Source of the DNA: Patescibacteria group bacterium
Lineage (GTDB): Bacteria; Patescibacteriota; Minisyncoccia; Minisyncoccales; Staskawiczbacteraceae
DNA length: 51,420 bases
Direction of reading: 5' to 3'
NCBI GenBank assembly: GCA_038065835.1
Contig: JBBTQB010000007.1
Span: forward strand, 1 to 51,420
Numbering within the stretch: position 1 is the stretch's first letter; each line of letters begins with the position of its first letter. The notes below the pieces were generated by a model. It saw only the letters and a list, made by a program, of their open reading frames with translations. It was not told the origin of the DNA and searched no databases. Both the position numbers and the translations under genes were made by a program. Positions 16,994 through 34,027 of this stretch are shown here, one piece after another.

Positions 16994-17611
16994 CTACTCA
17001 TAATCTTTAGAAATTCCGTCTTTGTCATACTGCAAATTGGTCAGCAGAATCATAAAGGGGGTTAAAAATAATATCTTAGAATCCAGCCACAAAGACCAAT
17101 GTTCTATGTACCAAATGTCCCATATTATCCTTTGTTTCCAGGGGAGATTATTGCCTCCCTTTATTATATCCATATTTGTAATCCCAGGTTTCGCCAAAAG
17201 TCTTTTCTTTTCGAGCTCTGTATATTTGACCACTTGGTGGGGCGAAGCCGGCCTAGGGCCCACCAAAGACATGCCATCAAAAATAACATTTATAAGCTGA
17301 GGAATTTCATCTAGTCCAACTCTTCTTATAACTTTCCCAACTCTTGTGACTCTTGGGTCGTCTTTAGATGTTTCATATCTCATGCCAATATGTTCTGTGT
17401 TTTGCTGCATTGTTCTAAATTTTAGCATTATAAATTCTTTTCCATTCCTACCTACCCTTTTTTGCTTAAAAATCACGGGGCCTTTTGAATCAAGCTTTAT
17501 CAAGATAGCTATAACTAAACATAATGGACTCAATAATATAAGCAAAAAAATAGAAAATAAAAGATCTATTATATCTTTTATAACGTACTGAATAGTTAGG
17601 CTTTTTTTCAC
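16994..17611 (-). CDS. Small monotopic phosphoglycosyltransferase, copy 2
   Basis: 205 aa. KLDSKGPVIFKQKRVGRNGKEFIMLKFRTM and DEIPQLINVIFDGMSLVGPRP. GTG start at 17611 lies inside the repeat terminus. Confidence 0.85.
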   Translation of the reverse strand: MKKSLTIQYVIKDIIDLLFSIFLLILLSPLCLVIAILIKLDSKGPVIFKQKRVGRNGKEFIMLKFRTMQQNTEHIGMRYETSKDDPRVTRVGKVIRRVGLDEIPQLINVIFDGMSLVGPRPASPHQVVKYTELEKKRLLAKPGITNMDIIKGGNNLPWKQRIIWDIWYIEHWSLWLDSKILFLTPFMILLTNLQYDKDGISKDYE

Positions 17612-17731
17612 GCCGTTAGAAGTCTGTTCTTATGGTACTTTAAAGTTATTTTGAACAGATATGTTACTTTAATATTAATTTGTTAGTACGTAACAGGAAA
17701 ATTTCAATGAAATTTTCCTGTCTAACGGGGT
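17610..17731. repeat. Family-B stop-to-start palindromic element (short copy)
   Basis: Termini ACGCCGTTAGAAGT (17610-17623) and GTCTAACGGGGT (17720-17731). The upstream TGA (17732-17734) abuts it and the downstream GTG (17611-17609) is embedded. Internal perfect hairpin CAGGAAAATTT-caatg-AAATTTTCCTG. Confidence 0.85.
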
Positions 17732-19624
17732 TCATCTTACTTTTCTTGCTTCCAAATAAAAGTTATGTGAAAAAATAATAAACAATGGTAAAAAAAGATT
17801 AAAAAAACGGTGAATTCTAAGCTTTATAATAACATCTGCCATAAAATCCAAAAAACTTGGCATAACATAAACACCTTTTAAATTAAATCTATCAAAACCA
17901 TTTTGCCTCATCAAGCCTTTGAATCTGTAGGGATTGTATCTTATTAACTTTTCTTTCTGTAATAAAATATCTAAAGCAAAAACATTTAAAGTAACAATAA
18001 TTAAAAGTCCGTCTTTTTTTAAAACTCTTTTTAATTCACCAATAGCTCTTTCTGAATCAGATAAAACTTGAAGAACTCCTTTACAAATAACAATATCAAA
18101 AAAACCATCTTCAAACGGCAAATTATAAGCATCAGCCACTTGGAAATTTATACTTTTGTCTTTATTTTTTGCAGCTTCAATAATTTCTGGAATATAATCG
18201 ACTCCATAGCATTGAAAACCTAATTCTAATAAGGGCATCAGGGTGTCTCCAAAACCACAGCCGACATCAAGTATTTTATTTTTTAAATTATAATCTCTAC
18301 TTCCAATATGCTTTTTAAAATAATCAAAAAAATAAACATTATCATTTCTAAATCCGGTTTTAGAATGAAACATTATTTCATGCTCTTTTTTCCCGTCCCT
18401 GGCAGCCCGACTGTATTTTGAAAACCATTCATCTTCAAGTCTAGTATTAAGTTTTTTCTTGATTAACTCTTCATAGGCAGAACCCAATCTTTCAAGAACT
18501 ATTTTTTTGCTGAATTTTTGAATAACTTTTTTTCTCCCCATGATTCCCATCTCTCTTGCTATTTCTGGGTTATCTAAAAGATAACCTATGGCACTCACGA
18601 TTTTGTTCGGGTTATTTACGGGAATTAATATGCCTGTTTTGCCATCATCAACTGCCTCAAGAATTCCTCCGGTATTAGTGGCTATGACCGGCCTCTCCAT
18701 TGACGAAGCTTCTAATATTACTGCTCCCAAACCTTCCCTGCGAGACGGCAAAACAAAAATATCCATCACCGAATACAGCTCCTGAACATCAGTCCTATCT
18801 CCCAGGAAAATAACATTACTGCCAAAGCCATAGGATTTAATTGTTTCAAGGTTAATGGGATCTTTTTTTTCCGGCTCAAGGGGCCCTACAACCAAAAGCA
18901 CGACATTATCGTATTTCTTTAAAATTTCCTGAAAAGCTTCGAATAATTCCAAGTACCCTTTTTCAACTACTAATCTGGCAACAATTCCAACTATTCTTTT
19001 ATCATCAGGTATACTTAATTCTTTTTTCTTCCTCTTTTTGAATTCATCGTTAAAGTTTTGAGGATTGAATCTATCAGTATCTATATCCCTCCCCAGGTAC
19101 AAAAGAACATCGGCAGAGAATATTTTATGTTCTTTGGCTTTGTTAATTATATCGTCACTTATTGAAAAAACTACTGATGAATATTTTCCAGTTATCTTTT
19201 GGAGCAACAGGTAAAGTTTTTTCTGCCAATAAGGAAGAGATCTGGGTAAGTCAGATCCAAATCCATGTAAAGTATTTAAAATAATGGGAACTCCCGCCAA
19301 GTAAGCTGATAACTGGCCGTAAATTTCAGCTTTGGGAGTATGAACATGAACAATATCAAACTTTTCTTTCTTGAAATAAAAAAATAACCTTATAAAAGCC
19401 AGTAAATCAGAAAATGGACTTATCATTCTTCTAGATAGTTTTATTGTTTTAACTTTAATGCCTTCGTTTTCTAGGCTCTGAATCCACTTTCCAGGGCTAC
19501 AAACAGCATGAACATCATAATCTTGAGATCGCAAAAACTTTAACTGGTCAAACAGCATAAATCTTAAGGTAAAGTCGGAGCTGACAACTTGGCAGATTTT
19601 GACATTTCTTTCTTTATTGTTCAT
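17732..19624 (-). CDS. Fusion: GT4 glycosyltransferase + class I SAM methyltransferase + C-terminal membrane helix
   Basis: 630 aa. GT4 E-x7-E region EGLGAVILEASSMERPVIATNTGG. Methyltransferase motif I ILDVGCGFGDT. Hydrophobic tail FFNLFLPLFIIFS. Confidence 0.75.
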   Translation of the reverse strand: MNNKERNVKICQVVSSDFTLRFMLFDQLKFLRSQDYDVHAVCSPGKWIQSLENEGIKVKTIKLSRRMISPFSDLLAFIRLFFYFKKEKFDIVHVHTPKAEIYGQLSAYLAGVPIILNTLHGFGSDLPRSLPYWQKKLYLLLQKITGKYSSVVFSISDDIINKAKEHKIFSADVLLYLGRDIDTDRFNPQNFNDEFKKRKKKELSIPDDKRIVGIVARLVVEKGYLELFEAFQEILKKYDNVVLLVVGPLEPEKKDPINLETIKSYGFGSNVIFLGDRTDVQELYSVMDIFVLPSRREGLGAVILEASSMERPVIATNTGGILEAVDDGKTGILIPVNNPNKIVSAIGYLLDNPEIAREMGIMGRKKVIQKFSKKIVLERLGSAYEELIKKKLNTRLEDEWFSKYSRAARDGKKEHEIMFHSKTGFRNDNVYFFDYFKKHIGSRDYNLKNKILDVGCGFGDTLMPLLELGFQCYGVDYIPEIIEAAKNKDKSINFQVADAYNLPFEDGFFDIVICKGVLQVLSDSERAIGELKRVLKKDGLLIIVTLNVFALDILLQKEKLIRYNPYRFKGLMRQNGFDRFNLKGVYVMPSFLDFMADVIIKLRIHRFFNLFLPLFIIFSHNFYLEARKVR

Positions 19625-21898: not shown

Positions 21899-23503
21899 TT
21901 ATAATTTTAGATACTTCTCTAAAAGTGGCACTTTGACGTTCTTTAATCTATCAAGTCCGAAGGGTAGTAGGCATAAAAGGGCTAAAAATGCCGGCATTCT
22001 AATTCTAGTTATCATGCCAAAATTATTTATGTAAAGAGACAAAACTCCAAAAATAAGAAGACTGAAAATAATTAAAGGCAAGATAACTTTGTAATTTACT
22101 TTTATGGATTTTAGCATACCCTTTATAATAAAGAATAGCAGAAAATACCAGGGGATTACTTCTGGCAAAACAAAAAGGTGTTTGGCTTTTTTTAACTGCC
22201 AGGGGAAGGGACCCAAAATAGAGTAAACAAAAGATAAGGAATTGCTTTTAAGAAATGAAATGGGATTGTCAAAACCAGCATCTATTACAATTGAGGAATC
22301 TTGAGCTATTGTACTTTTACCCTCTGGCAGAGGTATGGTTTCTTCTGCTTTTTTGGTTTCTTGAAGCTGAGATTTTGGGGGATAAGCTAGTTCTCTATAA
22401 CCAACAATTGTTTGGGGATTTAAAAAATTTTTAATAGCTTTTACACCCATATATCCTTGAGTAGCTCCGTCTAATGGAGCAATTCTCGGCAAAAAACCAA
22501 GAAGAAGAATCATTATAATTCCATAAATAACTCTTTTTTTAATTCTTAAATCACAAAAGCTAAACCAACAAATTATGAAACTTAAAATAAGTGCATAACC
22601 AATATAAAAACGGAAATGGGTCACTCCAGCCAACACAATATAGAAAATCAAAAAATTTAACCAGGAGAATTTTTTAATTATCTTTAAGGTCAACAACAAC
22701 CCAATAACGCTCAGTAAAACAACTAAAGCATCTTTTAATAACAAACTTCCGTAGAACGCCAAAGAGGGGTAAAAACAAACAATTAATCCCACAATGAAAC
22801 CTTCTTTTTTTGAACGACCTATTTGACAAACCAATAAAAAAACAAATACGGCTATGAGGGCAACTATCCAAGCGTTAAGCAACTGACCCATCAGCATGCT
22901 GGGAACTGTTAGAAGATAAACATAACCAATAGCAAGCGGATAGTAGTGGACCAGCGGCAAACCTAAGAATGGTAAACCTTCTAAAGAAAAATTTCCCGCA
23001 GAAACTCTTTTTGATATTTCTAGTGCAATTGCATGATATTCATTGAAATCTCCCCTTCCCTCACTGAATGGTTGAAAATCTGCATAATATACAAAAACAA
23101 CCATTACGATATGAATCAAAAAAACAATTAAAAAGAGTAGGGTTAAAAACTTTACCGTTTCCCCGCCCGCATCGCTATGCCAGCCTGCATTACCTGCGTT
23201 ATTATGTCTGGCAGGCGAAGCATTGCGGGCAGGCTTTTCTTTTACCCAGTTAGAAAGCTCTGCTTCTTTTTTCTCTTTTTCTAAAAAAGGACTATTGTTT
23301 GTTAAAATATTGCCCTTTCTAACGGGGTTTATTGTGTTAATAAAAAATAAAGCAATAGAAGATAAAAAAACAACAAATATAGCTCCTACAGCCAAATCTT
23401 TGTCAATCAAGGAAAGCAAAGCTAATATAATACAGATTAATATAACTTTATGATACCTTGAAAATGATTCTAAAAAATCCACCTCGTTAGAAGTTATGGG
23501 CAA
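21899..23503 (-). CDS. Polytopic membrane protein, GT-C-like (ArnT/PMT-type) or glycan polymerase/ligase; N-terminus built from repeats
   Basis: 534-aa ORF with at least 9 hydrophobic helices. An acidic loop GDFNEYH follows the helix FLTLLFLIVFLIHIVMVVFVYY. The first ~125 codons overlap three repeat copies, so the start is uncertain (TTG 23503 or GTG 23482). Confidence 0.4.
   Translation of the reverse strand: MPITSNEVDFLESFSRYHKVILICIILALLSLIDKDLAVGAIFVVFLSSIALFFINTINPVRKGNILTNNSPFLEKEKKEAELSNWVKEKPARNASPARHNNAGNAGWHSDAGGETVKFLTLLFLIVFLIHIVMVVFVYYADFQPFSEGRGDFNEYHAIALEISKRVSAGNFSLEGLPFLGLPLVHYYPLAIGYVYLLTVPSMLMGQLLNAWIVALIAVFVFLLVCQIGRSKKEGFIVGLIVCFYPSLAFYGSLLLKDALVVLLSVIGLLLTLKIIKKFSWLNFLIFYIVLAGVTHFRFYIGYALILSFIICWFSFCDLRIKKRVIYGIIMILLLGFLPRIAPLDGATQGYMGVKAIKNFLNPQTIVGYRELAYPPKSQLQETKKAEETIPLPEGKSTIAQDSSIVIDAGFDNPISFLKSNSLSFVYSILGPFPWQLKKAKHLFVLPEVIPWYFLLFFIIKGMLKSIKVNYKVILPLIIFSLLIFGVLSLYINNFGMITRIRMPAFLALLCLLPFGLDRLKNVKVPLLEKYLKL
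23161..23234. repeat. Family-C G+C-rich imperfect palindrome, intragenic
   Basis: GCCCGCA...TGCGGGC, TCGC/GCGA and GCCAG/CTGGC pairings. Shares the words GGCGAAG, GCGGGCAGGC and CCTGC with 8210-8268. Read in frame as ...ARNASPARHNNAGNAGWHSDAGGE... Confidence 0.7.
23244..23328. repeat. Family-B-type element, intragenic, opposite orientation
   Basis: Termini ACCCAGTTAGAAAG (23244-23257) and CTTTCTAACGGGGT (23315-23328), 13/14 complementary. Read in frame as NPVRKGNILTNNSPFLEKEKKEAELSNWV. Confidence 0.75.
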
Positions 23504-23670
23504 AATGTCATATGGGACATTTTGCTTACTCTTTGTTAATTTTTATTATTTACCTTATTTTAACCCATTGAAGTTTTAATTATCCTCATACAAACCCCGT
23601 TAGGGGTTTGTTTCTTTTGCATTTACCTTAAAACTCCTTGACCTCTAACGGGGCAAACTTCTAACGGAGT
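23481..23670. repeat. Family-B stop-to-start palindromic element (long copy 2)
   Basis: Termini ACCTCGTTAGAAGT (23481-23494) and ACTTCTAACGGAGT (23657-23670). Nested pair ACCCCGTTAGGGG (23594-23606) and ACCTCTAACGGGG (23641-23653). TGA of the upstream GT4 at 23671-23673 abuts it. High similarity to 33804-34027. Confidence 0.9.
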
Positions 23671-28948: not shown

Positions 28949-29946
28949 TTAGCGAATAGGCACATACGAATTATTGGCTGCATTAGTATGCATTTGCCTG
29001 CCTGCCGGCAGGCAGGTATATTGGTATCGCGGTTTATTTGTAGTTCAACAAACATTATTCCGTTATTGCGACCCGTTAATCTTCCAAACGTCCACAAAAA
29101 AAACGCCGGGACAAATCCTATTAAATACATCTTAATCTTTGCCAGAATATACAGTACCTTGGCAAGCAGAGAAGATTTTTTGTTTTCAATAGAATTGCTA
29201 GCCGTCCTAGCTGCTAATCCTGACCTAAATCTGCCGTCTATTGCGCCCATTATCATTTTAAACTGCTCTACATAGCAAAAATCCGATATTTCAAAGTTAA
29301 TTTTTGAAAATAAATTAGAAATTGCCTCTTTATTCCACCTTGTGAGGTGATGTGGGGGGAAATCCCAATTATTCCAATTTGCCAGCATGCGTTCCCTAGA
29401 TGGAGTGCTTATTATCATCTTTCCCCCCGGTTTTAACAACTTCTTTGCGCTTTTGATGAATTTCAAAGGATCTTGGACGTGCTCTATCACTTCAAAAAAG
29501 ACAACATAATCAAACAAGGGCAAATTTTGCCTTTTAAAAAAACCTTCAAATGGTTCAGCAAATACATTTTTTAAGCCAAAATATTTTTTGGCTAATTCAA
29601 TGCCTTTTCGGTCAAAATCAACTCCAAAAACCGTATATCCTCTTTTTTCCAGTTCAGCAATAAACTCTCCCGAGCCGCAACCTAGTTCAAGTACGGCAGT
29701 ACCTGCTGGAAACTGCAAATACTTCTGTAAAAACTTTTTGTGGGACCCGCGATATATCTTTGGGCCTATTACATTTTTTATTTCGTAATCGCTTGTCTCT
29801 TCATACCAATGAGCTCCTGGGTTTTTCGCGCCCCAAAAGAATTGCACCTTACAATCTTTGCATTGGTACATAAAAAACTCATTATATTTCATGATGGGTA
29901 TTAGTTCTCTGCTTTCTTTACAAATTGGGCAAACATTGGGATTCAT
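28921..29946 (-). CDS. Zinc-ribbon + class I SAM methyltransferase with membrane helix; repeat-encoded C-terminus
   Basis: CPICKES...CKDCKVQ. Motif I VLELGCGSGEF. Helix MYLIGFVPAFFLWTF. The last ~30 codons run through the 20-nt palindrome and the 51-bp palindrome. Confidence 0.7.
   Translation of the reverse strand: MNPNVCPICKESRELIPIMKYNEFFMYQCKDCKVQFFWGAKNPGAHWYEETSDYEIKNVIGPKIYRGSHKKFLQKYLQFPAGTAVLELGCGSGEFIAELEKRGYTVFGVDFDRKGIELAKKYFGLKNVFAEPFEGFFKRQNLPLFDYVVFFEVIEHVQDPLKFIKSAKKLLKPGGKMIISTPSRERMLANWNNWDFPPHHLTRWNKEAISNLFSKINFEISDFCYVEQFKMIMGAIDGRFRSGLAARTASNSIENKKSSLLAKVLYILAKIKMYLIGFVPAFFLWTFGRLTGRNNGIMFVELQINRDTNIPACRQAGKCILMQPIIRMCLFAKECRIRTIN
28997..29016. repeat. 20-nt perfect palindrome CCTGCCTGCCGGCAGGCAGG (copy 2, inside methyltransferase tail)
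   Basis: Identical to 28556-28575. Read in a different frame as PACRQAG. Confidence 0.95.
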
Positions 29947-31439
29947 TTTTGTGATGTCAAAAACCTTTTTATTTCCTTGCAGATAAACTGGTAATTATTT
30001 TTATCATTTGGGTCTTTCGCATAAAGGATATCTGCCAAGATACTGTTCCTCAAATAAGAAATAATGAATCTCATATTAATTTCCTCCAAATTCACCCCGT
30101 TAGAGGTTTGCTTTGTTTCATTTTCTCTCAAGACTCCCTGATCTCTAATGGGGTTGGGTAAATCCCAATTTATTTGAAGGTCTCTTTTTATTTTTTCCTT
30201 TAAGTCTTCAAAGTTTACTACCTTTTGGCATAAAGGATGATAAGAATAAAATACGTTTCCCAAAACATAGACTGGTTTTCCCTGTATTGCCGCTTCCATG
30301 CCAACCGTGCTGGTCATGGTAATTACGCCTATTGAATTAGCAATAACGTTTGGCGTTGATTCTTCTGAAGACAACAATACAGCATTGGGTATTTTTTTTA
30401 TCTCTTCGTAAAACTGATTGGTCCTTGAGCCAATAGAGCCCGGATGCTCTTTTAAACATAATTTATAAGGAAATGGCAGGGTGGCTGAAACATATTTTAT
30501 GGTAGCTAACTGGTTTGAATAATAGGTTGCTAAAACTAAAGTTGAAGCTTCCGGCTCGTATTGAATAGGAAAAAAGAAATATTTGTCTTTTGAGCTAAGC
30601 TTATTAAATATATTTCCCTGGAGTTTGATTTTAATATTTTTTTTAATGGTTCTAAATGGAGCCATAAGGCTTCTCCTTAACACTGCCTCGCTTTCGTAGT
30701 CAAATCTCTTAACTTTGGACCTATCCAAAAAATACCTGAAGAAAACGTAGCTGGATTCTTTAAGTCTTCTTAAGTAATGTCTAATATAATCAAATAAACT
30801 AAATCTTACTTTGACTATATAATAAGAAGAATAAATGGTTTTGTGAGATATGAACTTTTTTATGAAATTTTTGGCAAATTCTGTTTCGCCCGGCAAAAAA
30901 TCTTCCTTTTTCAAATTTTTGAAATTATCTTCAAATTTTGAGCAGGTCCATTCTAAGTCCCAAATATCTATCCTACCCGGGAAGCGCGATTCGGCGATGC
31001 CACAAAAAGGAATATTATTTTTTTTAGTAAAATAGTAAGCCACCTCGCCAAAAAGCCCTGGCGGCGGTTCCCCAATTACAATATCTGGCTTTTCATAACT
31101 AAAAATGTAGTCAAAAAATTGATAAAGTTGATTTACTATATCCAAAGATTGATTGTAATTGTACCTATTATAAAGATTAAACCTTTCAAAAACAGTAAAA
31201 AGCTCTCTCCAGCTCAAATTCCCAAAGTCTTTTTTTGAAGAATCGTAGTTTTTAATGCACCAATCTATTTTTGATAAAAACTTGGAATTTTTAGGAAAAA
31301 ACTTGCCCTTTTCATACTCAGCAATCTTGCTGTTAAAAACAACCAAACATTCATCTCCTTCTTTTGTAAGCTGATGGGAAATCTTGCCTAAAAATTCAAA
31401 TAAATATGACGCATCATTTATTAAAAATAGCCATTTCAT
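29943..31439 (-). CDS. Capsule polysaccharide biosynthesis protein (KpsS/LpsZ-like, Capsule_synth family)
   Basis: 498 aa. YFFFPIQYEPEAS...CLKEHPGS...ITMTSTVGMEAAIQGKPVYVLG pattern. Carries the in-frame repeat 30094-30154 near the C-terminus. Confidence 0.5.
   Translation of the reverse strand: MKWLFLINDASYLFEFLGKISHQLTKEGDECLVVFNSKIAEYEKGKFFPKNSKFLSKIDWCIKNYDSSKKDFGNLSWRELFTVFERFNLYNRYNYNQSLDIVNQLYQFFDYIFSYEKPDIVIGEPPPGLFGEVAYYFTKKNNIPFCGIAESRFPGRIDIWDLEWTCSKFEDNFKNLKKEDFLPGETEFAKNFIKKFISHKTIYSSYYIVKVRFSLFDYIRHYLRRLKESSYVFFRYFLDRSKVKRFDYESEAVLRRSLMAPFRTIKKNIKIKLQGNIFNKLSSKDKYFFFPIQYEPEASTLVLATYYSNQLATIKYVSATLPFPYKLCLKEHPGSIGSRTNQFYEEIKKIPNAVLLSSEESTPNVIANSIGVITMTSTVGMEAAIQGKPVYVLGNVFYSYHPLCQKVVNFEDLKEKIKRDLQINWDLPNPIRDQGVLRENETKQTSNGVNLEEINMRFIISYLRNSILADILYAKDPNDKNNYQFICKEIKRFLTSQK
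30094..30154. repeat. Family-B core hairpin, intragenic and in frame
   Basis: ACCCCGTTAGAGGT (30094-30107) and ATCTCTAATGGGGT (30141-30154). About 80 percent identical by eye to the inner unit of 33951-34010. Translated NPIRDQGVLRENETKQTSNGV. Confidence 0.85.
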
Positions 31440-33805: not shown

Positions 33806-34027
33806 CCCGTTAGAAGTATGGGCAAAATGTTAATCATGAGACCTGGTCTTATCAACGAGGCCGGGTCTCGTTGTGACAATTTGCTTGCTCTTTGTTAATA
33901 ATTATCATATTAAATTTTGACTCATTAAAGCTTTTTACTACCTTATCCAAACCCCGTTAGAGGTTTGTTTCTTTTGCATTTACCTTAAAGCTCCTTGACC
34001 TCTAACGGGGCAAACTTCTAACGGGGT
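33804..34027. repeat. Family-B stop-to-start palindromic element (long copy 1, with nested insert)
   Basis: Termini ACCCCGTTAGAAGT (33804-33817) and ACTTCTAACGGGGT (34014-34027). Nested pair at 33951-33964 / 33998-34010. A 44-nt G+C-rich insert (33831-33874) splits a hairpin that is intact in the 23481-23670 copy. Confidence 0.9.

What the first reader, a model, noticed from the sequence alone, without database searches (positions are those of the whole stretch)
17610..17731. Short family-B copy between the GT4-methyltransferase fusion and phosphoglycosyltransferase 2
This 122-bp element has the same boundary logic. TGA (17734-17732) is followed directly by ACCCCGTTAGA. The far terminus TCTAACGGC-GTG-AAAAAAAG contains the GTG start of the PGT (MKKSLTIQY).

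The interior differs from the long copies: a perfect 11-bp hairpin CAGGAAAATTT-caatg-AAATTTTCCTG and an AT-rich spacer. So only the termini and their relation to the stop and start codons are conserved. This is the pattern expected if the termini are the functional part.
Basis: seen in the sequence. Interest (0 to 1): 0.6.

Follow-up and report, generated by a model that had tools for sequence, protein, structure and literature searches.

The report
Decayed mini-transposon on a start codon
The 120-base spacer between two sugar-coat genes is a worn-out copy of a tiny jumping DNA element of ultra-small groundwater bacteria. It landed on the four letters where one gene stops and the next starts, and its own last letter rebuilt the second gene's start signal.

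Summary
Window 17611-17730 (minus strand) is a 120-bp, ORF-less element. It is bounded by CCCCGTTAGA ... TCTAACGGCG and flanked by a direct TGAA duplication.

Removing the element and one TGAA restores ...AGATGAAAAAAAG..., an ordinary ATGA stop/start overlap. The left TGAA keeps the glycosyltransferase-methyltransferase stop. The element's last G plus TG of the right TGAA makes the phosphoglycosyltransferase GTG start.

It is a decayed member of a ~130-bp subfamily found in many Patescibacteria. It has lost 9 bp at one end and has one mismatch in the other.
- An interior-only search model still finds copies with near-invariant ends.
- 21 of 22 such copies sit on a rebuilt GTG start. Only 4 of 22 also abut a stop codon.
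- Orientation is fixed.
- The interior is not free: the "perfect hairpin" is a conserved, covarying stem.

Within the genus, the sibling copy's site (clpB start) is empty (plain ATGAA) in six species, filled in this genome, and filled by another subfamily in one more.

Coding relatives (282 bp, same ends) carry only a 93-aa GIY-YIG nuclease, read from the host's ATG. No such element was found in the searched literature. The mobilising enzyme is inferred, not shown.

The parts
17611..17730 (-). The element proper: 120 bp, 31% G+C, no ORF of its own. It is a decayed member of the ~130-bp CCCCGTTAGAAGTC subfamily.
   Evidence: Full-length alignment with 15 other copies. Scored 71.5 bits, E=1e-10, by the interior-only model R1. 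Identical in three other public assemblies.
17731..17734 (-). Left copy of the 4-bp target-site duplication, TGAA. Its TGA (17734-17732) is the stop of the GT4-methyltransferase gene. With A17735 it also forms the orphaned original ATG of the downstream gene.
   Evidence: TSD statistics: 72 of 118 terminal-repeat pairs have perfect 4-bp direct flanks, against 0 in a shifted control.
17721..17730 (-). Upstream terminal inverted repeat CCCCGTTAGA. The next 9 bp of the subfamily consensus (AGTCYTNGN) are deleted in this copy.
   Evidence: gap in alignment columns 11-19.
17694..17720 (-). Hairpin HP1: CAGGAAAATTT / CATTG / AAATTTTCCTG. This is the subfamily's conserved stem, and here it carries a compensated G-C pair.
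   Evidence: 9 of 12 pairs have changes on both sides, 95% of cells paired, and 0 of 500 shuffles reach the observed values.
17653..17659 (-). 5' arm (TCTGTTC) of a weaker second stem, HP2.
   Evidence: Pairs with 17623-17629. Two positions are compensated relative to the consensus GTCTGTCT/AGACAGAC. The helix is only 74% paired across copies.
17623..17629 (-). 3' arm (GAACAGA) of HP2. It overlaps the inner part of the downstream terminal repeat.
17611..17624 (-). Downstream terminal inverted repeat GACTTCTAACGGCG, matching the consensus GACTTCTAACGGGG at 13 of 14 positions. Its last G (17611) is the first base of the rebuilt GTG start.
17607..17610 (-). Right copy of the TGAA duplication. TG (17610-17609) completes the GTG start (17611-17609) of the phosphoglycosyltransferase.
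17732..19624 (-). Upstream gene: GT4 glycosyltransferase fused to a class-I methyltransferase (630 aa). The C-terminus is intact.
   Evidence: Pfam Glycos_transf_1 1.7e-37 and Methyltransf_11 9e-25. It ends FYLEARKVR*, the same length as the relative's FYIEGRKNI*.
16994..17611 (-). Downstream gene: small phosphoglycosyltransferase (205 aa) with a rebuilt GTG start.
   Evidence: Pfam Bac_transf 1.4e-61, covering residues 12-189. The next in-frame Met lies beyond residue 60, so the GTG or a nearby codon must be used.

Best explanation
This is a non-autonomous, now probably immobile copy of a miniature inverted-repeat transposable element.

**Inferred history**
- The ancestral junction was an ordinary 4-base overlap, ...AGA TGA / ATG AAA AAA AGC.
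- The element inserted with a 4-bp staggered cut at TGAA and duplicated it.
- The left TGAA still supplies the TGA stop of the glycosyltransferase-methyltransferase gene.
- The right TGAA has lost the A of the old ATG. The element ends in G, so G+TG gives a GTG start for the phosphoglycosyltransferase at the same codon position.

**Shown**
- The anatomy.
- The duplication as a family-wide rule.
- The conserved ends and hairpin.
- The strict orientation and start-codon seat of the subfamily.
- Empty and filled orthologous start codons for sibling copies within the genus.

**Inferred**
- The rebuilt GTG is actually used.
- This particular copy can no longer move, because of its 9-bp terminal deletion and one terminal mismatch.
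- The family is moved by the ~93-aa GIY-YIG nuclease, which is the only gene found between identical ends in coding relatives. That nuclease is translated from the host gene's own ATG.

The strong conservation of the ends is what one expects of the sites handled by the mobilising enzyme. The conserved hairpin and the fixed orientation probably reflect either what the enzyme needs or what the downstream gene's translation tolerates.

The confidence given (0.85) is for the reading as an inserted mobile element with a TGAA duplication and a rebuilt start. The identity of the mobilising enzyme is rated separately, at about 0.4.
For: **1. Terminal repeats plus TGAA/TGAA flanks at this copy**.

**2. 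The duplication is a family rule.**
- 72 of 118 terminal-repeat pairs have identical 4-bp flanks; a control shifted by 2 bp gave 0.
- The 4-mer varies between copies but matches on both sides, so it is host-derived.

**3. Subfamily membership.**
- Full-length alignment.
- Hairpin covariation.
- Own-genome siblings at C66 472-603 and a partial one on C68.

**4. Unbiased sampling.**
- Model R1, built without the termini, finds copies in 14 of 81 relatives.
- All 22 complete copies carry the consensus ends.
- 21 of 22 are followed by an ORF of at least 60 codons that starts at last-G+TG.
- 17 of 22 are preceded by ATG.
- Only 4 of 22 abut an upstream ORF's stop.
- In the first sample, 12-13 of 16 have the gene on the same side and 0 of 16 on the other.

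**5. Mobility and the exact empty site.**
- The clpB-like gene starts ATGAAT or ATGAAC with no element in six congeners. In this genome it reads ATGAA[132-bp element]TGAATGG with a GTG start. In G025 the same codon is occupied by a different subfamily.
- rplI is filled in congener G014 and empty (ATGAAG) in this genome.

**6. This junction in a relative.** In the nearest relative that keeps the gene order (G026), GT4-MT and PGT are 5 nt apart with no element. Both proteins begin and end at the same positions.

**7. Coding relatives.**
- L071 6221-6502 (282 bp) has the same ends and TSD TGAA. Its ORF runs from the host ATG (MNPVRS = TSD + repeat) to a TAA inside the right repeat. It matches Pfam GIY-YIG at 2e-17.
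- Of the 120 homologues listed (956 in total), most begin M-x-PVR-S/N and end ...DF.
- L140 sits in a hisF/hisH ATGA overlap exactly as here.
Against: - No precise empty site exists for THIS junction. The only syntenic relative is 56% identical at protein level and has TAA-5 nt-ATG, not ATGA.
- Three other assemblies that carry the gene all carry the identical element, so no polymorphism was seen.
- This genome assembly holds no nuclease gene with matching ends. It has only distant GIY-YIG genes (49% identity or less) with other ends.
- Several genomes rich in these elements lack a close nuclease.
- No transposition event or enzyme activity has been observed.
- No Shine-Dalgarno sequence precedes the rebuilt GTG. 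The short ORF from the orphaned ATG ends 52 nt before the GTG, so how the PGT is translated is unexplained.
- The start-codon bias exceeds what a TGAA target alone would give: about 110 genes start ATGAA, against about 1,560 intergenic TGAA sites. Something in the model is still missing.
Confidence: 0.85

Rival explanations
1. It is the same mobile element, but moved by a conventional DDE-type transposase from an undiscovered insertion sequence with the same ends. The GIY-YIG gene in the 282-bp relatives would be cargo or a secondary invader.
For: Terminal inverted repeats plus a fixed-length 4-bp duplication are the classic footprint of DDE transposition (established knowledge). GIY-YIG enzymes are not known transposases. 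Many genomes carry the small elements without a close nuclease.
Against: - Among 120 loci and the whole genome, no pair of these ends 0.5-6 kb apart with matching flanks encloses a transposase.
- No DDE_Tnp_1 match, and only a sub-threshold rve match, in this genome.
- The only coding members found fill the space from repeat to repeat with the nuclease ORF.
Confidence: 0.2
2. It is a purpose-built cis-acting RNA module, such as a leader, translational coupler or processing site. On this reading the host keeps it between the two genes, and its ends are conserved because they frame the stop and start codons.
For: - Conserved, covarying hairpin.
- Fixed orientation relative to the downstream gene.
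- Strong predicted fold.
- It must be co-transcribed in this one-strand operon.
Against: - It sits in front of unrelated genes: PGT, clpB, rplI, hisH and an epimerase.
- It is absent from the same genes in congeners.
- Distribution is patchy, in 14 of 81 relatives.
- It is flanked by duplicated host bases.
- No Rfam family matches.
- The stop-codon contact is present in only 4 of 22 copies.
Confidence: 0.05
3. It is a REP/REPIN-type or IS200/IS605-type palindromic element moved by a Y1 (RAYT/TnpA) tyrosine transposase. Such an enzyme inserts next to a fixed tetranucleotide without duplicating it.
For: The genome encodes three Y1_Tnp-like proteins. The elements are hairpin-rich and orientation-specific, and TGAA is by far the commonest flank in this subfamily.
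Against: - The flanking 4-mers co-vary on both sides (TGAG/TGAG, TGGA/TGGA, TTGA/TTGA, TATG/TATG). This is a true duplication, which Y1 transposition does not make.
- None of the three Y1 genes lies next to the motif.
Confidence: 0.04

Closest known systems
Correia / NEMIS elements of Neisseria (MITEs co-transcribed with neighbouring genes); comparison from my own knowledge
   Same: About 100-150 bp with no ORF. They have terminal inverted repeats and a target-site duplication, occur in many copies, often sit between genes of one operon, and become part of the mRNA.
   Different: - Correia elements duplicate TA and have 26-bp ends of unrelated sequence.
- They are confined to Neisseria and show no start-codon seat.
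- Here the duplication is 4 bp, the ends are CCCCGTTAGAAGTC, and 21 of 22 copies rebuild a start codon.
Rickettsia palindromic elements (RPEs); comparison from my own knowledge
   Same: Small palindromic repeats in reduced genomes that survive at positions where they do not destroy genes. The 59-bp relative at window 30095-30153 sits in frame inside a gene.
   Different: RPEs are defined by in-frame insertion in coding sequence and have no clear duplication. This copy is intergenic, has a 4-bp duplication and belongs to a start-codon-seated subfamily.
REP/REPIN sequences with RAYT transposases
   Same: Short hairpin-forming repeats that are orientation-biased and dispersed between genes. Y1_Tnp-like genes are present in the genome.
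   Different: REPINs make no target duplication, and their RAYT gene is flanked by the cognate repeats. Both features were tested here and not met.
GIY-YIG homing endonuclease genes (for example I-TevI and free-standing phage HEGs) and UPF0213/YhbQ-type small GIY-YIG proteins (PDB 1zg2, 1ywl)
   Same: The coding relatives' only protein is a ~93-aa GIY-YIG domain. Its nearest solved relatives are BH0048 (1zg2, E=6e-6) and EF2693 (1ywl).
   Different: Homing endonucleases copy themselves into one cognate allele by break repair. They lack terminal inverted repeats and target duplications. These elements sit at dozens of unrelated start codons, and this particular copy has no nuclease gene at all.

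Membership tests
Bacterial MITE (non-autonomous terminal-inverted-repeat element) | Terminal inverted repeats | tested here: met
   CCCCGTTAGA / TCTAACGGCG pair at 9 of 10 positions. The subfamily consensus is a 14-15 bp perfect repeat.
Bacterial MITE (non-autonomous terminal-inverted-repeat element) | Target-site duplication of fixed length | tested here: met
   TGAA on both sides here. 72 of 118 pairs have a perfect 4-bp duplication, against 0 in the control.
Bacterial MITE (non-autonomous terminal-inverted-repeat element) | Small, non-coding, multi-copy | tested here: met
   120 bp. The only ORF is a 23-codon read-in from the orphaned ATG. There are 3 subfamily copies and about 25 superfamily copies in the 692-kb genome.
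Bacterial MITE (non-autonomous terminal-inverted-repeat element) | Presence/absence at orthologous sites | tested here: inconclusive
   Met for sibling copies at the clpB and rplI start codons. For this copy there is only a distant syntenic relative without the element, and no polymorphism in 3 assemblies.
Bacterial MITE (non-autonomous terminal-inverted-repeat element) | Coding partner with the same ends | tested here: inconclusive
   A 282-bp element with identical ends and a GIY-YIG ORF exists in other Patescibacteria, but not in this genome. Whether that protein is the transposase is untested.
REP/REPIN with RAYT | No target duplication; insertion beside a fixed tetranucleotide | tested here: not met
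   Flanks co-vary on both sides.
REP/REPIN with RAYT | RAYT gene flanked by the cognate repeats | tested here: not met
   Three Y1_Tnp-like genes are present. None has the motif within 900 bp at 1 mismatch or fewer.
Correia/NEMIS | TA duplication and the Correia 26-bp end sequence | tested here: not met
   The duplication is 4 bp (TGAA) and the ends are CCCCGTTAGAAGTC. The Correia consensus itself is recalled from memory and was not aligned.
Rickettsia palindromic elements | In-frame insertion inside a protein-coding gene | tested here: not met
   This copy lies between a stop codon and a start codon.
Described structured RNA family (Rfam) | Match to a curated covariance model | tested here: not met
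   No match at gathering score anywhere in the window.

The most novel reading that the evidence does not exclude
The CCCCGTTAGAAGTC elements may be a distinct class of prokaryotic DNA transposon. On this reading:
- The autonomous form is only about 282 bp.
- It encodes nothing but a ~93-aa GIY-YIG nuclease whose reading frame runs from one terminal repeat to the other.
- It has no start codon of its own. It lands on a host gene's ATG, borrows that ATG and ribosome-binding site for its nuclease, stops at a TAA inside its right repeat, and returns a start codon to the host with its last base.
- The 120-bp copy at 17611-17730 would be a decayed non-coding derivative of this system, seated the same way.
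Probability: 0.4. Interest if true: 0.85.

Novelty: new variant of a known kind. Interest (0 to 1): 0.55.

Why it matters
**For annotation.**
- The 120-bp "intergenic region" and the GTG start of this phosphoglycosyltransferase are scars of an insertion, not designed features.
- Gene callers often mis-place starts next to these elements. One example is the hisH-like gene called from inside the element.

**For biology.**
- The family shows how a mobile element can persist in genomes with almost no spare DNA. It duplicates the four bases that hold a stop and/or start codon, and it ends in a base that restores the start.
- The start-codon seat (about 95% in the unbiased sample) and the fixed orientation go beyond what the TGAA target explains. 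This makes the family a testable case of start-site targeting, or of very strong filtering.
- If the tiny GIY-YIG protein is the mobilising enzyme, it would add an enzyme class to bacterial transposition. It would also define an exceptionally small autonomous element.

Tried and rejected
- **Rfam scan of the whole window:** no family matched.
- **Promoter/terminator consensus scan of 17400-17950:** no promoter-like site inside the element on the gene strand. The one terminator-like hit is on the wrong strand. The idea of an outward promoter in the downstream end is therefore unsupported.
- **Termination-reinitiation coupling:**
  - Idea tested: the short ORF from the orphaned ATG ends next to the rebuilt GTG, as the nuclease ORF does in coding copies.
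  - Rejected for the non-coding subfamily. The ORF ends 18-122 nt upstream, with no constant frame.
- **Full-length insertion sequence with the same ends:** a search for pairs 0.5-6 kb apart with matching flanks gave only two coincidental pairs of separate elements.
- **DDE and integrase families in the genome:** no DDE_Tnp_1 match and only a sub-threshold rve match.
- **Y1/RAYT link:** the genes are present but not associated with the motif.
- **Population polymorphism at this site:** the three assemblies that carry the identical PGT all carry the identical element.
- **Literature:** four full-text searches found nothing relevant. They covered GIY-YIG with TIR/TSD/start codon, MITE with Patescibacteria, the literal end sequences, and GIY-YIG mobile hairpin repeats.
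- **Caveat on one sample:** the first set of 120 loci was ascertained with an exact 14-mer of the end, which inflates end conservation. The analysis was therefore repeated with the interior-only model.

Full report
**1. The observation**

All genes in this part of the window lie on the minus strand. Read on that strand:
- The 630-aa GT4 glycosyltransferase-methyltransferase fusion ends ...AGA TGA (stop at 17734-17732).
- The sequence then runs A-CCCCGTTAGA-CAGGAAAATTT-CATTG-AAATTTTCCTG ... GACTTCTAACGGC-G-TG-AAAAAAAG.
- GTG (17611-17609) opens the 205-aa Bac_transf phosphoglycosyltransferase.

The core motif is far over-represented. CCGTTAGA occurs 10 times in the window against 0.66 expected, and 0 of 100 shuffles reach 10. 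It occurs 47 times in the 692-kb, 36.5% G+C genome. The genome is a small one that earlier notes of this scan label Patescibacteria.

**2. What it is**

If one TGAA and the 120 bp are removed, the junction reads ...GTA AGA TGA overlapping ATG AAA AAA AGC. That is an ordinary ATGA stop/start overlap.

Inverted ends with a direct 4-bp repeat are the footprint of a transposable element, and I tested that on a larger sample. Most are from Patescibacteria, with some from Planctomycetota, Omnitrophota, Nitrospirota and others.
- Of 118 pairs of inverted ends 40-500 bp apart (these loci plus the own genome), 72 are flanked by identical 4-mers. A control shifted by two bases gave none.
- The 4-mer differs between copies (TGAA, TTGA, TAAA, TATG, TGGA, CGAG, CATG...) but matches on both sides. 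It is therefore host DNA duplicated on insertion, not part of the element.
- 53 of the 72 contain a stop trinucleotide, against an 18% background. TGAA alone makes up 25%, against 1.1%.

**3. Not a free interior**

It does differ from the two long copies in the window. However, it aligns along its whole length with a ~130-bp subfamily. That alignment holds 15 other members, including one from the same genome at contig C66 472-603. A truncated copy lies on C68.

Relative to the consensus, this copy has:
- lost 9 bp just inside the upstream end;
- one mismatch in the downstream end (GGCG for GGGG);
- about 55% identity in the interior.

The "perfect 11-bp hairpin" is the subfamily's conserved stem:
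- 9 of its 12 pairs show compensatory changes somewhere in the alignment, and 95% of cells are paired.
- No shuffle reaches the observed covariation, and sliding the partner by one column drops pairing to 56%.
- This copy carries one such compensated pair (G-C where others have A-T).

A second, weaker stem is also compensated in this copy (TCTGTTC/GAACAGA here, GTCTGTCT/AGACAGAC in the consensus). It is only 74% paired overall.

**4. Are the ends really the most conserved part?**

In the first sample the ends show 98-99% column identity, the hairpin 85% and the rest 66%. That sample was ascertained with one end, so I removed the bias:
- I cut the 14 terminal bases off every copy and built a covariance model of the interior only.
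- I searched 81 related genomes with it.
- It found more than 40 copies in 14 genomes. The distribution is patchy: only 3 of 26 genomes of the same genus have one.
- All 22 complete copies carry CCCCGTTAGAAGTC ... GACTTCTAACGGGG almost unchanged.

**5. The real "boundary logic"**

In that unbiased set:
- 21 of 22 copies are followed by an ORF of at least 60 codons that begins with the element's last G plus TG.
- 17 of 22 are preceded by ATG.
- Only 4 of 22 also have an upstream ORF ending in the left TGA.

In the first sample, 12-13 of 16 have the gene on that side and 0 of 16 on the other.

The constant feature is thus the start codon, always in one orientation. Contact with a stop codon occurs only when the start that was hit is part of an ATGA overlap, as at 17731-17734.

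**6. Evidence of movement and the exact empty site**

For this junction I found no close relative.
- The nearest genome that keeps GT4-MT followed by PGT (G026, same family, 56% identical PGT) has TAA-AAAAT-ATG with no element. Both proteins begin and end at the same positions as here.
- Three other public assemblies that encode the identical PGT carry the identical element.

For sibling copies the evidence is direct.
- The clpB-like gene (Clp_N + AAA) starts ATGAAT/ATGAAC-GGA-GG with an unrelated leader in six species of the genus.
- In this genome it reads ATGAA[132 bp]TGAATGG with a GTG start.
- In a seventh species the same codon is occupied by a different subfamily with the same ends.
- Conversely, rplI carries the element (GTG start) in congener G014 and is empty (ATGAAG) in this genome.

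**7. What might move it**

I checked this on my own loci.
- L071 6221-6502 is a 282-bp element with the same ends and a TGAA duplication.
- Its single ORF starts at the host's ATG. The residues MNPVRS are encoded by the duplication plus the repeat.
- It ends at the TAA inside the right repeat, 4 nt before the rebuilt GTG.
- It matches Pfam GIY-YIG at 2e-17.

Of the 120 homologues listed (956 in total), most start M-x-PVR-S/N and end ...DF, the translation of the repeats.

Two further coding copies were read at DNA level:
- One sits in a hisF/hisH ATGA overlap exactly like the present case.
- In the other, the terminal pair has changed from C...G to T...A, and the host start is rebuilt as ATG.

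The nearest solved structures are the small UPF0213 proteins 1zg2 and 1ywl.

This genome has four small GIY-YIG genes. They are at most 49% identical to that clade. Where ends are visible they are different: CCCCCCACTAATTTTGTCC on C46, and TCCCGCACCTATCAAACACT with a CTTG duplication on C26. That the nuclease is the mobilising enzyme is therefore an inference from association. Nothing here shows activity, and several element-rich genomes lack a close copy.

**8. Open points**

- *Start-codon bias.* By a rough count this genome has 110 genes starting ATGAA, against about 1,560 TGAA/TTCA sites outside ORFs of at least 100 codons. A TGAA target plus loss of harmful insertions predicts a minority of copies on start codons, not about 95%.
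- *Orientation.* The two ends are identical for 14 nt, so rebuilding GTG cannot explain the fixed orientation. The hairpin end resembles the 3' end of the nuclease ORF. This suggests that the small elements lie inverted relative to coding ones. A hairpin placed right before the start codon may be selected against, but this is speculation.
- *Translation.* No Shine-Dalgarno sequence precedes the rebuilt GTG. The read-in ORF from the orphaned ATG stops 52 nt upstream here, and 18-122 nt upstream elsewhere. How the PGT is translated is unknown.

**9. Comparison with known systems and novelty**

- It works like a bacterial MITE and meets the structural criteria: inverted ends, fixed duplication, small size, no coding capacity, many copies.
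- It is not a Correia element (TA duplication, other ends).
- It is not an RPE (in-frame, no duplication).
- It is not a REP/REPIN or IS200/IS605 element (no duplication). Three Y1-like genes exist here but none is next to the motif.
- No DDE_Tnp_1 match, and only a weak rve match, were found in the genome.
- No Rfam family matches.
- Four literature searches, including the literal end sequences, found no description.

Other agents of this scan have met the same family at other sites and reached the same reading. That is not independent evidence, but the claims I re-tested held.

**10. Verdict**

- The finding is real.
- The "termini matter" idea is right.
- The "stop/start device" and "free interior" ideas are not.
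- This particular copy is an old, damaged and probably immobile member, so it is of moderate interest on its own.
- The family it belongs to appears undescribed and has unusual properties.

Noticed in passing
L071 6216-6502; L140 1501-1790; L142/L143 1501-1790: These are 282-bp elements with the same ends. Their only ORF (93-aa GIY-YIG) starts at the host gene's ATG and stops at a TAA inside the right repeat, 4 nt before the rebuilt host start. In L142/L143 the terminal pair is T...A and the host start is rebuilt as ATG instead of GTG.
   Followed up: partly
G000 contig C66 472-603 versus L196-L202: The clpB-like start codon is empty (ATGAAT/ATGAAC) in six congeners and filled by the 132-bp sibling in this genome. 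In G025 (L201) it is filled by a different subfamily with the same ends. The same codon was therefore hit twice independently.
   Followed up: yes
window 33952-34010 and 23595-23653 (nested); 30095-30153: A 59-bp hairpin element with the same 10-nt ends (CCCCGTTAGAGGTC...) lies nested inside both long family-B copies, with a TTTG duplication. It also lies inside ORF 29943-31439.
   Followed up: partly
G000 contigs C46 629-820 and C26 8933-9169: Two other small GIY-YIG genes are bounded by their own, different inverted ends: CCCCCCACTAATTTTGTCC, and TCCCGCACCTATCAAACACT with a CTTG duplication. This suggests several co-varying nuclease/end lineages in one genome.
   Followed up: partly
G000 contigs C56 6608-6835, C21 5483-5701, C1 14819-15037: Three Y1_Tnp (IS200/RAYT-like) genes occur in a 692-kb genome. 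None is adjacent to the CCCCGTTAGA motif, and their own repeats were not looked for.
   Followed up: partly
long family-B copies, e.g. window 33840-33880; G000 C47, C48, C53, C16, C29: A GC-rich imperfect palindrome, GAGACCCGGCCTCGTTGAYRAGACCRGGTCTC, recurs inside the long copies. It looks like yet another nested small element.
   Followed up: no
alignment of L069/L039/L024 elements with L071 coding element: The hairpin end of the ~130-bp elements resembles the 3' end of the nuclease ORF (AAATTCTTTTTTGCYCATGACTTCTAACGGGG). The non-coding elements therefore appear to sit inverted relative to coding ones with respect to the host gene.
   Followed up: partly
window 23245-23327: A further small pair of degenerate ends (CCCAGTTAGA ... 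TCTAACGGGG, about 83 bp) lies inside the listed ORF 21899-23503. The TTG start listed for that ORF lies inside the neighbouring element, so the true start is probably the GTG at about 23483.
   Followed up: no
L168 and L181 (G041): Two copies share an identical foreign left flank (CACGCCTCGGATTTCGTCCTCGG) that replaces the first bases of the upstream end. Either the element is embedded in another repeat or this is a recombinant end.
   Followed up: no
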